A stretch of 64,000 bases of DNA from positions 121,089 through 185,088 of the forward strand of contig JAHIRB010000007.1 of assembly GCA_018818885.1 (NCBI GenBank). The letters run 5' to 3'. The stretch is from Patescibacteria group bacterium. Its GTDB lineage: Bacteria > Patescibacteriota > Patescibacteriia > Buchananbacterales > SURF-54. The notes beneath the pieces are model-generated. The model did no database searches. It was not told the origin of the DNA and saw only the letters and a list, made by a program, of their open reading frames with translations. Within the stretch, counting starts at the first letter, position 1. Every line of letters starts with the position of its first letter. The position numbers were made by a program, and so were the translations under genes. This document shows, in pieces, positions 63,296 to 63,490 of the stretch.

Positions 63296-63384
63296 TTGAC
63301 ATATTTATTCAATAATCTATAATATAGCTATCACGATAAGAGGCTATACAAAGGGTTTTGTCCCGAGGTAATGCCTCTTTTTAG
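63296..63384 (+). ncRNA. Candidate small RNA unit a: promoter, hairpin, terminator
   Basis: TTGACA 63296-63301, 16-nt spacer, TATAAT 63318-63323. Transcript hairpin AAGAGGC...AAGGG-ttttg-TCCCG...GCCTCTT followed by TTTAGTTT. Confidence 0.35.
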
Positions 63385-63391
63385 TTTACTC

Positions 63392-63490
63392 TTGACAAAA
63401 GAATAATAAATGCTACACTATCAATATCACCATGAGGGGAGGTTTATAAGGTTTTGTCCTTATACAATTGCCCCTCGTTTAAAAACCTCT
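63392..63490 (+). ncRNA. Candidate small RNA unit b: promoter, hairpin, terminator
   Basis: TTGACA 63392-63397, 16-nt spacer, TACACT 63414-63419. Hairpin GAGGGG...TAAGG-ttttg-TCCTTA...CCCCTC followed by GTTT. Shares the GG(G)TTTTGTCC(C) loop with unit a. Confidence 0.35.

What the first reader, a model, noticed from the sequence alone, without database searches (positions are those of the whole stretch)
63296..63490. Two tandem promoter-hairpin-terminator units (candidate paired small RNAs) antisense to the NYN gene's downstream region
Unit a: TTGACA-16-TATAAT (63296-63323), then a nested hairpin with loop AAGGGTTTTGTCCCG and a terminator GCCTCTTTTTAG. Unit b: TTGACA-16-TACACT (63392-63419), then a hairpin with loop TAAGGTTTTGTCCTTA and CCCCTCGTTT. 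Both carry near-consensus -35 boxes and share the GGTTTTGTCC loop core. No ORF follows on the plus strand. This could be a duplicated sRNA gene, a type I toxin/antitoxin-like RNA pair, or orphan attenuators.
Basis: seen in the sequence. Interest (0 to 1): 0.55.

Follow-up and report, generated by a model that had tools for sequence, protein, structure and literature searches.

The report
Conserved small RNA partnering NYN nuclease
The two promoter-hairpin units are real copies of an apparently undescribed ~55-nucleotide small RNA that sits tail-to-tail with a small NYN nuclease gene in hundreds of uncultivated bacteria and some phages, and it probably keeps that nuclease in check, like the RNA half of a toxin-antitoxin pair.

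Summary
Two 96-bp-spaced units (63296-63382 and 63392-63521, + strand) each carry a near-consensus sigma-70 promoter, an 8-nt 5' tail (AUCACnAU), a nested hairpin with a GG-UUUUGU-CC loop, and a terminator.

They belong to a large family that Rfam 15 does not contain. A 22-base pattern found 55 genome loci, at least 119 metagenome loci and several viral loci. All show the same promoter-tail-hairpin-U-run anatomy, with compensatory changes in the stems.

The only conserved neighbour is a convergent ~165-aa LabA-type NYN nuclease gene, present in 146 of 164 informative loci. Its stop codon lies inside the sRNA gene in 88 of 102 non-redundant loci. All 15 lineages found by starting from the NYN protein (40-84% identity) carry a convergent sRNA unit of this kind.

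In the window, unit b is the cognate partner and shares a bidirectional terminator with the NYN gene. Unit a is an extra copy of a sister subtype. Phage contigs carry orphan copies inside late operons.

Best reading: an RNA antitoxin or repressor of the nuclease, with type I-like overlap plus type III-like sequence conservation. That function is inferred, not shown. I rate it a new variant of a known kind.

The parts
63296..63323 (+). Promoter of sRNA unit a (TTGACA-16-TATAAT).
   Evidence: 12/12 consensus match. The equivalent promoter is conserved in 100 of 142 distinct homologous loci at 10/12 or better, with the -10 box ending 6-9 nt before ATCAC.
63330..63382 (+). sRNA a, about 53 nt. 5' tail AUCACGAU 63330-63337; P1 63338-63344 pairs with 63373-63379; apical GGG-UUUUGU-CCC 63353-63364; U-run to 63382. 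It is an extra copy of a sister subtype, with no gene opposite it.
   Evidence: Fold -18.6 kcal/mol, z -3.8. Terminator scan hit. Covariance model R1 scores 74.7 bits, E 2e-17. This subtype (CUAUACAAAGGG..CCCGAGGUAAU) accompanies NYN proteins only 58-69% identical to the window's.
63392..63419 (+). Promoter of sRNA unit b (TTGACA-16-TACACT, with TG before the -10 box).
   Evidence: 10/12 consensus match.
63426..63476 (+). sRNA b, conserved module. 5' tail AUCACCAU 63426-63433; P1 GAGGGG 63434-63439 pairs with CCCCUC 63471-63476; apical UAUAAGG-UUUUGU-CCUUAUA.
   Evidence: Fold -22.4 kcal/mol, z -4.4. R1 scores 53.1 bits, E 1e-11. The same subtype accompanies the closest NYN relatives: L015 at 70% and P0040 at 72% identity.
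63478..63521 (.). Bidirectional intrinsic terminator shared by sRNA b (+) and the NYN mRNA (-). It contains the NYN stop codon and is the predicted zone of about 40 nt where the two transcripts overlap.
   Evidence: Inverted repeat I1. The fold of 63426-63522 is -43.2 kcal/mol, z -7.5. The minus-strand fold is -14.1 kcal/mol, z -4.6. A run of U follows the stem on both strands.
63498..64000 (-). 3' 166 codons of the 167-aa LabA-type NYN nuclease gene. The start codon runs 1 nt past the window end. It is the conserved protein partner of the sRNA.
   Evidence: Pfam PF01936, 41 bits against a cutoff of 24.2. Exact protein P0001, 167 aa. AlphaFold2 pLDDT 93. Foldseek best hits are 2QIP and the MARF1 NYN domains. 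Invariant D12, D87, E89, D110 and D112.

Best explanation
**What it is (shown).** Units a and b are two genes of a previously undescribed, horizontally spread family of small RNAs about 52-95 nt long. Each is transcribed from its own strong sigma-70 promoter. Each consists of an 8-nt single-stranded 5' tail (AUCACnAU), a nested hairpin with a conserved GG-UUUYGU-CC apical loop, and an intrinsic terminator. The family's only conserved partner is a convergent gene for a ~165-aa stand-alone LabA-type NYN (PIN-like) nuclease. The last codons and stop codon of that gene lie inside or right against the sRNA gene. Together they form a self-contained two-gene cassette.

**How it works (inferred).** The abundant sRNA restrains the nuclease, acting as an RNA antitoxin.
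1. Its 3' half is necessarily complementary to the 3' end of the NYN mRNA. Pairing, RNase III cleavage or polymerase collision there would destabilise the NYN message or strip its stop codon. This is type I-like control.
2. The tail and loop stay invariant across phyla even where they have no complementary partner. That points to sequence-specific recognition, most plausibly by the NYN protein itself. This is type III-like sequestration or pseudo-substrate binding.

**In this window.** Unit b is the cognate RNA. Unit a is an additional stand-alone copy of a sister subtype.

**In phages.** Phages carry promoter-less orphan copies inside late operons, plausibly as decoys that neutralise the nuclease.
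For: **The family and its transcription unit**
- One 22-base pattern hit 1 viral, 55 genome and at least 119 metagenome loci, all with the same anatomy.
- 100 of 142 distinct upstream regions match the promoter consensus at 10/12 or better. Conservation begins exactly at the A of ATCAC.

**RNA structure**
- 94% of cells are paired. There are 78 double-change cells against 22 in shuffles, and 0 of 500 shuffles reach the observed value.
- G-U pairs favour the + (sRNA) strand.

**Link to the NYN gene**
- An adjacent convergent NYN gene is present in 146 of 164 informative loci.
- NYN is the only recurrent neighbour family. The flanks are heterogeneous.
- The region upstream of NYN is not conserved.
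- The stop codon lies within the first 58 nt of the sRNA gene in 88 of 102 non-redundant loci.

**Unbiased check, starting from the protein**
- All 15 NYN lineages at 40-84% identity have a convergent promoter + tail + hairpin + U-run unit at the stop codon.
- 9 of 15 keep the AUCACnA tail and 11 of 15 keep a GGUYNYGUCC-like loop.

**Hints that the RNA acts beyond antisense pairing**
- In this window the NYN terminator ends the mRNA before the conserved hairpin of unit b, and unit a has no gene opposite it at all.
- Two-hairpin RNAs repeat the loop motif.

**Phage copies**
- Orphan copies without NYN occur in 3 of 6 viral lineages against 18 of 164 cellular loci (Fisher p = 0.026).

**The nuclease looks active**
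- The acidic catalytic residues are invariant.
- The model has the NYN fold.
- 8 of 146 NYN copies are fragmented, as is common for toxins.
Against: - There is no expression, toxicity or binding data of any kind. All hosts are uncultivated, and the NYN subfamily is absent from PLSDB plasmids and GenBank phages.
- LabA-type NYN proteins have no demonstrated nuclease or toxin activity (PMC5499597, read).
- The PADLOC match is weak and covers the NYN domain only.
- The flanks are mostly housekeeping genes rather than defence islands.
- NYN has no conserved promoter of its own.
- The architecture fits neither classical type I (small hydrophobic toxin) nor type III (co-directional repeat array, ToxN fold).
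- Tail and loop were fixed by the search pattern in most loci. Their true conservation therefore rests on the 15 protein-first lineages.
- The viral and cellular orphan rates come from searches with different patterns.
Confidence: 0.55

Rival explanations
1. Regulated antisense attenuator. The hairpin is a ligand- or protein-sensing element. Its P1 helix doubles as a terminator. When termination fails, transcription from the strong promoter runs antisense through the NYN gene and silences it.
For: - P1 is always the terminator stem followed by a U-run.
- The internal loops and apical loop are conserved like an aptamer.
- In unit a an alternative small hairpin, GAGGU-AAU-GCCUC, competes with P1.
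- The promoter always points into the NYN gene.
Against: - No alternative anti-terminator pairing is conserved across subtypes.
- The 5' tail has no conserved complement within the RNA.
- Unit a points into unit b's promoter rather than into NYN, and a strong second terminator follows unit b.
- The phage copies lack both promoter and U-run yet keep the tail and loop.
- There is no match to any riboswitch family in Rfam.
Confidence: 0.1
2. The sRNA is the functional product and NYN is its dedicated processing or turnover enzyme. The pair would then be a housekeeping or regulatory RNA-enzyme pair acting on some third, universal target, not a toxin-antitoxin pair.
For: - The tail and loop are invariant across phyla, which would fit a universally conserved third-party target or partner.
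- Orphan sRNA genes with their own promoter and terminator exist in cellular genomes without NYN.
- Most flanking genes are housekeeping.
Against: - The cassette is patchily distributed and clearly moves horizontally between phyla.
- NYN pseudogenes occur beside intact sRNAs.
- More distant NYN clades have sRNAs with different tails or loops, so there is no single universal target.
- No complementary site was found in the NYN 5' region or coding sequence, and no candidate third target was identified.
Confidence: 0.15
3. Pure cis-antisense by-product. The unit is essentially the NYN gene's 3' terminator region plus a convergent promoter. The sequence conservation reflects recent horizontal spread rather than RNA-specific function.
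For: - The overlap with the NYN stop codon is nearly universal.
- Cis-antisense pairs need no sequence constraint to stay complementary.
Against: - Stems P1 and P2 have diverged with compensatory changes while the tail and loop stay fixed, at a median NYN identity of 58%.
- On the NYN strand the hairpin is not followed by a U-run, so it is not the NYN gene's terminator in most loci.
- The near-consensus promoter is itself conserved.
Confidence: 0.12
4. The element works at the DNA level (a recombination, packaging or origin-like site), or it encodes a micro-peptide starting at the AUG within AUCACGAUG.
For: - The variable positions in the tail fall every third base: ATC ACn ATn AGn.
- Many hits lie at contig ends.
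- The phage copies sit next to HNH and terminase genes, where cos sites often lie.
Against: - Those 'wobble' positions are nearly invariant across the family.
- AUG is replaced by AUA or AUU in 12 of 80 sequences, including unit a.
- Indels break the reading frame, and one common subtype would stop after 5 codons.
- G-U pairs and covariation indicate a single-stranded RNA of the + strand.
- The promoter and U-run are conserved.
Confidence: 0.03

Closest known systems
Type I toxin-antitoxin systems with convergent, 3'-overlapping antisense RNAs: txpA/RatA and bsrG/SR4 of Bacillus subtilis, and par (Fst RNA I/RNA II) of pAD1. SymE/SymR (PMC1891008) is the example with a larger, nuclease-like toxin. 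The details of these systems are from my own knowledge.
   Same: - A short, strongly transcribed sRNA with a single-stranded 5' tail, a stem-loop and a terminator.
- It is encoded convergently and overlaps the 3' end of the protein gene.
- As in par, a bidirectional terminator is shared in this window.
- The unit is a compact two-gene mobile cassette.
   Different: - The protein is a 165-aa soluble NYN nuclease, not a hydrophobic peptide under 60 aa.
- The sRNA has invariant sequence elements that antisense pairing alone does not explain.
- In this window the conserved hairpin lies outside the predicted NYN transcript.
- Toxicity has not been tested.
Type III toxin-antitoxin/abortive-infection systems (ToxIN, CptIN, TenpIN; PMC3401426, PMC5086642), and phage-encoded pseudo-ToxI antitoxin mimics (the latter from my own knowledge).
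   Same: - A structured RNA with conserved sequence paired to an endoribonuclease-type protein.
- Occasional tandem repeats of the RNA unit.
- Orphan RNA copies carried by phages.
   Different: - The RNA gene is convergent with its own promoter, rather than an upstream co-directional array of 36-nt repeats.
- The nuclease has a NYN/PIN-like fold, not a ToxN fold.
- RNA-protein binding and processing are not shown.
LabA-like NYN proteins: Pfam PF01936, COG1432, PDB 2QIP, and the MARF1 NYN domains 5YAA and 6FDL.
   Same: - The Pfam match is above threshold.
- The predicted fold matches 2QIP (TM 0.75) and MARF1 NYN.
- The acidic active-site residues are conserved.
   Different: - This is a minimal stand-alone subfamily with no OST-HTH or other domain.
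- It is confined to uncultivated lineages.
- No sRNA partner has been reported for any NYN protein in the literature I could search.
Tandemly duplicated sRNA genes such as PrrF1/PrrF2 of Pseudomonas (from my own knowledge).
   Same: Two related sRNA genes sit head-to-tail about 95 bp apart, each with its own promoter and terminator.
   Different: The two copies here are different subtypes of a family tied to a nuclease gene. They are not recent paralogues of a trans-acting Hfq-type regulator.

Membership tests
Type I toxin-antitoxin (cis-antisense RNA antitoxin) | The antitoxin RNA gene overlaps, or is complementary to, the toxin mRNA. | tested here: met
   The NYN stop codon lies within the first 58 nt of the sRNA gene in 88 of 102 non-redundant loci. 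In this window the overlap is about 40 nt at the shared terminator.
Type I toxin-antitoxin (cis-antisense RNA antitoxin) | The toxin is a small (usually under 60 aa) hydrophobic, membrane-active peptide. | tested here: not met
   The partner is a 167-aa soluble NYN-domain protein. Only atypical members such as SymE are comparable.
Type I toxin-antitoxin (cis-antisense RNA antitoxin) | The RNA represses toxin translation or mRNA stability, and the toxin is growth-inhibitory. | not testable with these tools
   This needs expression experiments.
Type III toxin-antitoxin (ToxIN-like) | The antitoxin is an array of tandem RNA repeats upstream of the toxin gene, co-directional with it, and separated from it by a terminator. 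| tested here: not met
   The RNA gene is convergent in all 146 NYN-linked loci. It is usually one unit, occasionally two.
Type III toxin-antitoxin (ToxIN-like) | The toxin belongs to the ToxN/AbiQ, CptN or TenpN endoribonuclease families. | tested here: not met
   Pfam gives only PF01936 NYN. The fold matches 2QIP and MARF1 NYN.
Type III toxin-antitoxin (ToxIN-like) | The RNA binds and inhibits the protein directly and is processed by it. | not testable with these tools
   Only indirect evidence exists: the tail and loop are invariant where antisense pairing imposes no constraint.
NYN domain / LabA-like (PF01936) | A Pfam match above the gathering score, with conserved acidic metal-binding residues on a PIN-like fold. 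| tested here: met
   41 bits against a cutoff of 24.2. D12, D87, E89, D110 and D112 are invariant in 57 homologues. pLDDT 93, and the top Foldseek hits are 2QIP and MARF1 NYN.
Any Rfam 15 RNA family (riboswitches, ribozymes, known sRNAs, leaders) | A covariance-model score at or above the family's gathering threshold. | tested here: not met
   No hit in the whole window at gathering thresholds. The best sub-threshold hit is His_leader at 24 bits against 49, and it aligns mainly through the terminator.
Riboswitch / cis attenuator | A conserved sensor lies upstream of a regulated gene on the same strand. | tested here: not met
   No + strand ORF follows here. In 146 loci the downstream gene is convergent. 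Only one phage lineage has the element in a 5' UTR.
Independent sRNA gene (promoter + structured RNA + intrinsic terminator) | A conserved promoter at a fixed distance, a structure supported by covariation, and a terminator. | tested here: met
   Actual transcription is not shown.
tRNA / tmRNA | Cloverleaf detected by ARAGORN. | tested here: not met
   ARAGORN finds no gene in the window.

The most novel reading that the evidence does not exclude
The NYN-sRNA cassette is a new class of RNA-gated nuclease system, for defence or addiction. A PIN-like NYN ribonuclease is held inactive by direct, sequence-specific binding of a ~55-nt hairpin RNA, through the AUCACnAU tail and the GG-UUUYGU-CC loop. 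The convergent overlap adds a second, antisense layer that can strip the stop codon from the nuclease mRNA. Phages counter the system with promoter-less RNA decoys embedded in their late operons. Bacteria stack extra sRNA subtypes, such as unit a here, as cross-immunity against incoming cassettes.
Probability: 0.3. Interest if true: 0.85.

Novelty: new variant of a known kind. Interest (0 to 1): 0.68.

Why it matters
- **A first functional handle on LabA-type NYN proteins.** This is one of the largest PIN-like groups, and no member has a demonstrated nuclease role (PMC5499597).
- **A new, very compact, strongly conserved RNA family.** It comes with clear covariation, which makes it suitable for Rfam and for structural work.
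- **Possibly a new architecture of RNA-controlled toxin.** It mixes type I and type III features in Patescibacteria and other uncultivated phyla, where toxin-antitoxin and defence biology is almost unknown.
- **A readable host-virus RNA arms race.** The phage-borne orphan copies suggest one that can be traced directly in metagenomes.
- **Directly testable.** The whole system is under 700 bp and could be synthesised and tested in E. coli.

Tried and rejected
- **Known RNA families:** Rfam at gathering and at E <= 10 gave nothing meaningful. ARAGORN found no tRNA or tmRNA.
- **Micro-ORF ('YHDxG..GFCP', or starting at AUG of AUCACGAUG):** rejected. The apparent wobble positions are invariant, the start codon is not conserved, and indels and early stops break the frame.
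- **Trans target in the NYN mRNA:** the 90 nt upstream of NYN start codons share no motif. Complements of the tail and loop are not clearly enriched in the coding sequence: 23 against 14 expected, and 18 against 18.
- **Tail-loop pseudoknot (ACGA with UYGU):** possible on paper, but the variable tail base does not covary with the loop in the protein-first examples. Not supported.
- **Other conserved partner genes:** all-against-all clustering of flanking ORFs of 70 aa or more found only NYN. Pfam and PADLOC scans of 115 flanking proteins were heterogeneous.
- **Cultivated models:** there is no NYN homologue in PLSDB plasmids or GenBank phages at 1e-10. The sRNA has no blastn match in GenBank phages.
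- **Literature:** five full-text searches found no report of an NYN-associated sRNA.
- **Structure prediction:** single-sequence AlphaFold2 failed at pLDDT 40. Rerunning with an alignment succeeded.
- **Weak model hit at 59233-59260 (-):** this is an ordinary terminator.
- **Region 63180-63245:** it has no significant structure on either strand.

Full report
**1.

- Unit a has TTGACA-16-TATAAT (63296-63323, 12/12). Unit b has TTGACA-16-TACACT (63392-63419, 10/12, with TG before the -10 box).
- The units are a direct repeat with a 96-bp period. They share CTCTTGACA, TATCACnATnAGnGG, GGTTTTGTCC and AAT.
- Starting at the A of ATCAC, RNA a (63330-63382) folds at -18.6 kcal/mol (z -3.8). The core of RNA b (63426-63482) folds at -22.4 kcal/mol (z -4.4).
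- Unit a ends in a hairpin plus U-run.
- Only GUUU follows P1 of unit b. Next comes a strong bidirectional terminator (63478-63521) that encloses the stop codon (63498-63500) of the minus-strand NYN gene.
- RNA b is therefore probably about 93 nt long, and it overlaps the NYN transcript by about 40 nt. This is an inference.
- The exact loop decamer occurs only twice in the 64-kb window. No credible + strand ORF follows.

**2. It is not a known RNA**

Rfam 15 gives no hit at gathering thresholds in the whole window. At E <= 10 there are only sub-threshold chance hits around the terminator. ARAGORN finds nothing.

**3. It is a large family**

The pattern ATCACNATNAGNGG-N(6-16)-GGTTTTGTCC has 22 specified bases.

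The record titles of the 55 genome hits name:
- 25 Patescibacteria/CPR
- 11 'uncultured Gammaproteobacteria' MAGs
- 6 Omnitrophota
- 3 Planctomycetota
- 2 Chloroflexota
- 1 each of WOR-3, Clostridia, Armatimonadota and a Rhizobium-labelled MAG
- 4 unclassified

Every hit shows the same anatomy.
- A sigma-70-like promoter is present in most: 100 of 142 distinct upstream regions match at 10/12 or better, TTGACA occurs in 80 of them, and the -10 box ends 6-9 nt before ATCAC.
- Conservation starts exactly at the A of ATCAC.
- P1 is a 7-bp stem followed by a U-run.

An 80-sequence alignment supports the fold: P1, a 2-4-bp middle helix and a 2-3-bp apical helix.
- 94% of cells are paired.
- There are 78 double-change cells against 22 in shuffles, and 0 of 500 shuffles reach the observed value.
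- Sliding the pairing register collapses the pairing.
- Twenty G-U pairs at the base of P1 would be A-C on the other strand, so the RNA is the + strand of the window.

**4. The defining partner is the NYN gene**

A profile search of six-frame translations finds a convergent, adjacent NYN ORF in 146 of the 164 loci that have at least 650 nt downstream. Eight of these are fragmented. Eighteen loci are orphans.
- All-against-all clustering of flanking ORFs finds no other recurrent family.
- Pfam and PADLOC scans of 115 flanking proteins are heterogeneous: mostly housekeeping, with a few RM, MNT and Fic genes.
- The 90 nt upstream of the NYN start codons share nothing, neither a promoter nor a Shine-Dalgarno sequence.
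- The conserved cassette therefore runs from the NYN ATG to the sRNA -35 box.
- The NYN stop codon begins within the first 58 nt of the sRNA gene in 88 of 102 non-redundant loci. The C-terminal Lys-rich tail is often simply the complement of the terminator's U-run.

**5. Unbiased test, starting from the protein**

Most loci were selected by an RNA pattern, so I also started from NYN proteins. The sources were three viral loci found with the protein, the P0040 cluster, and ten 50%-identity cluster representatives at 40-53% identity.

All 15 independent lineages, the window included, carry a convergent promoter + single-stranded tail + long hairpin + U-run unit. Its hairpin overlaps or abuts the NYN stop codon (folds).
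- Nine keep the AUCACnA tail.
- Eleven keep a GGUYNYGUCC-like loop.
- Others have a 'class B' tail (..ACGAAAAAGCA..) or different loops.

The architecture is therefore older than the class-A sequence. Within class A, the tail and loop stay fixed while the stems covary and NYN proteins drop to a median of 58% identity.

**6. The protein**

P0001 is the exact 167-aa protein, and the window lacks only part of its start codon.
- It matches PF01936.
- D12, D87, E89, D110 and D112 are invariant in 57 homologues.
- It models at pLDDT 93.
- It resembles 2QIP (function unknown) and the MARF1 NYN domains (sequence-level result).
- The subfamily comprises 137 clusters at 50% identity with E < 1e-30. At 90% clustering there are at least 7,994 proteins at E <= 0.001.
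- It is absent from PLSDB plasmids and GenBank phages.
- The 2017 PIN-superfamily survey lists this group (NYN.COG1432) as of unknown function with no nuclease studies (PMC5499597).

**7. What the two units in this window are**

The NYN proteins closest to the window's (L015 at 70%, P0040 at 72%) carry the unit-b subtype, AGGUUYAUGAGG-UUUYGU-CCU..CAAUUG. Unit b is therefore the cognate RNA.

The unit-a subtype (CUAUMCAAAGGG..CCCGAGGUAAU) goes with NYNs 58-69% identical to the window's. Unit a has no gene opposite it, and its terminator runs straight into unit b's promoter. It is an additional stand-alone copy.

Comparable stacking occurs elsewhere. L060 and L068 have a class A unit, then a class B unit, then NYN. 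L018, L038 and L111 encode two-hairpin RNAs that repeat the loop motif.

**8. Phage copies**

A relaxed viral scan filtered with the covariance model gave 11 class-A hits. Three lineages have NYN: L240/L248, L251 and L231.

Three lineages have no NYN within 3 kb:
- A group of related phages (L199, L200, L218, L220/L235, L243). The element lacks a promoter and a U-run and sits between a small basic ORF and the HNH-TerS-TerL-portal genes.
- L221, where it lies at the end of a holin-like/HNH operon just before a terminator.
- L001, where it follows the M23 peptidase and a small membrane protein.

Orphans make up 3 of 6 viral lineages against 18 of 164 cellular loci (Fisher p = 0.026). The caveat is that the two searches used different patterns.

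**9. Mechanism**

Shown:
- A conserved, structured, independently promoted RNA gene.
- Obligatory convergent linkage to an intact-looking nuclease gene, with 3' overlap.
- Horizontal mobility as a two-gene cassette.
- Orphan copies in phages.

Inferred: the sRNA restrains the nuclease.
- The near-universal placement of the stop codon inside the sRNA gene argues for an antisense, type I-like layer. Duplex formation, RNase III cleavage or polymerase collision there would yield unstable or stop-less NYN mRNA.
- Antisense pairing cannot explain why the tail and loop are invariant.
- Nor can it explain why the conserved hairpin of unit b lies beyond the NYN terminator, why unit a exists with nothing opposite it, why second hairpins repeat the loop, or why phage copies keep the tail and loop without any NYN overlap.
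- These points argue for sequence-specific recognition. The only co-conserved candidate reader is NYN itself, which would be type III-like sequestration or pseudo-substrate binding.

I cannot separate the two layers computationally. I put about 0.55 on 'RNA antitoxin or repressor of NYN' overall, with neither layer clearly dominant.

**10. Rivals**

The rivals are a regulated antisense attenuator, NYN acting as a processing enzyme for a functional sRNA, a pure antisense by-product, and a DNA site or micro-ORF. They are weighed in the structured fields. The micro-ORF and DNA-site readings are contradicted.

**11. Novelty**

I found no Rfam family and no paper in five full-text searches. No cultivated example exists. 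The logic, an RNA that controls a nuclease, is known from type I and type III systems. The toxin fold, the convergent architecture and the RNA family are new. My verdict is a new variant of a known kind, with function still to be demonstrated.

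Noticed in passing
L028 about 455-560 (+); L060 about 2355-2460 (+); L191 1002-1063 (-): A second sRNA class ('class B'): 5' AGAAUACAYACGAAAAAGCACC..GGUUUUGUCC..GGUGCUUUUU. It has the same apical loop as class A but a different tail. It is the convergent partner of a more distant NYN clade (P0187, 41% identity). In L060 it is stacked after a class-A unit.
   Followed up: partly
L200 4201-4258 (-), and the equivalent positions in L199, L218, L220, L235 and L243: In one phage lineage the class-A element has no promoter and no U-run. 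It begins at the stop codon of a ~70-aa basic ORF (gTAATCACGAT) and ends 11 nt before the start codon (66 nt after the ATCAC start) of an HNH endonuclease gene next to TerS, TerL and portal genes. No Shine-Dalgarno sequence is visible for the HNH gene.
   Followed up: partly
L179 3910-4003 (just beyond the window's right end): Upstream of the window's NYN gene there is a TTGACA-17-TAAAAA(T) promoter-like site. A terminator-like hairpin (GCGCCTATAGGCGC-TTTTTG) follows it and ends 10 nt before the NYN ATG, with no evident Shine-Dalgarno sequence. It may terminate the preceding P-type ATPase gene or attenuate NYN. It is not conserved in other loci.
   Followed up: no
window 59233-59260 (-): A terminator-like hairpin, GAGAGCCC..CACGAUGAGUGGGCUCUC-UUUUAUUUU, contains CACGAUGAG and gives a weak covariance-model hit (19 bits, E 0.009). 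It is probably a coincidence.
   Followed up: partly
window 61539-62333 (-) and 62338-63156 (-): Two adjacent paralogous class-I SAM methyltransferase genes (Methyltransf_11/25) lie immediately beside the cassette. Both give PADLOC hits to mad2 (methylation-associated defence). Upstream lie several small membrane proteins and a Q/N-rich secreted low-complexity protein (59507-60346).
   Followed up: no
window 57456-57824 (-): A DUF559 / REase_MTES_1575 endonuclease-like gene (Vsr-fold family) lies about 5.5 kb from the cassette.
   Followed up: no
L104 (convergent ORF at +55), L109/L116, L139: Degraded NYN genes sit beside intact sRNA genes. L104 is a chimeric ORF that keeps only the NYN C-terminal ..SSLFRKMMPRIVFMNNLRGKLEY. 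L109 and L116 have internal deletions. This suggests the sRNA outlives the nuclease gene.
   Followed up: partly
window 63356-63367 versus 63389-63400: The loop region of unit a (TTTTGTCCCGAG) is 10/12 complementary to the -35 region of unit b (CTCTTGACAAAA). Many family promoters read cTTGACAAA, so the significance is unclear.
   Followed up: no
L152 about 150-200: An orphan class-A sRNA is followed within about 20 nt by what looks like the 3' half of a tRNA gene on the opposite strand (..GGGGCTAGGAATCGAACCTAG..) and by a LAGLIDADG endonuclease ORF.
   Followed up: no
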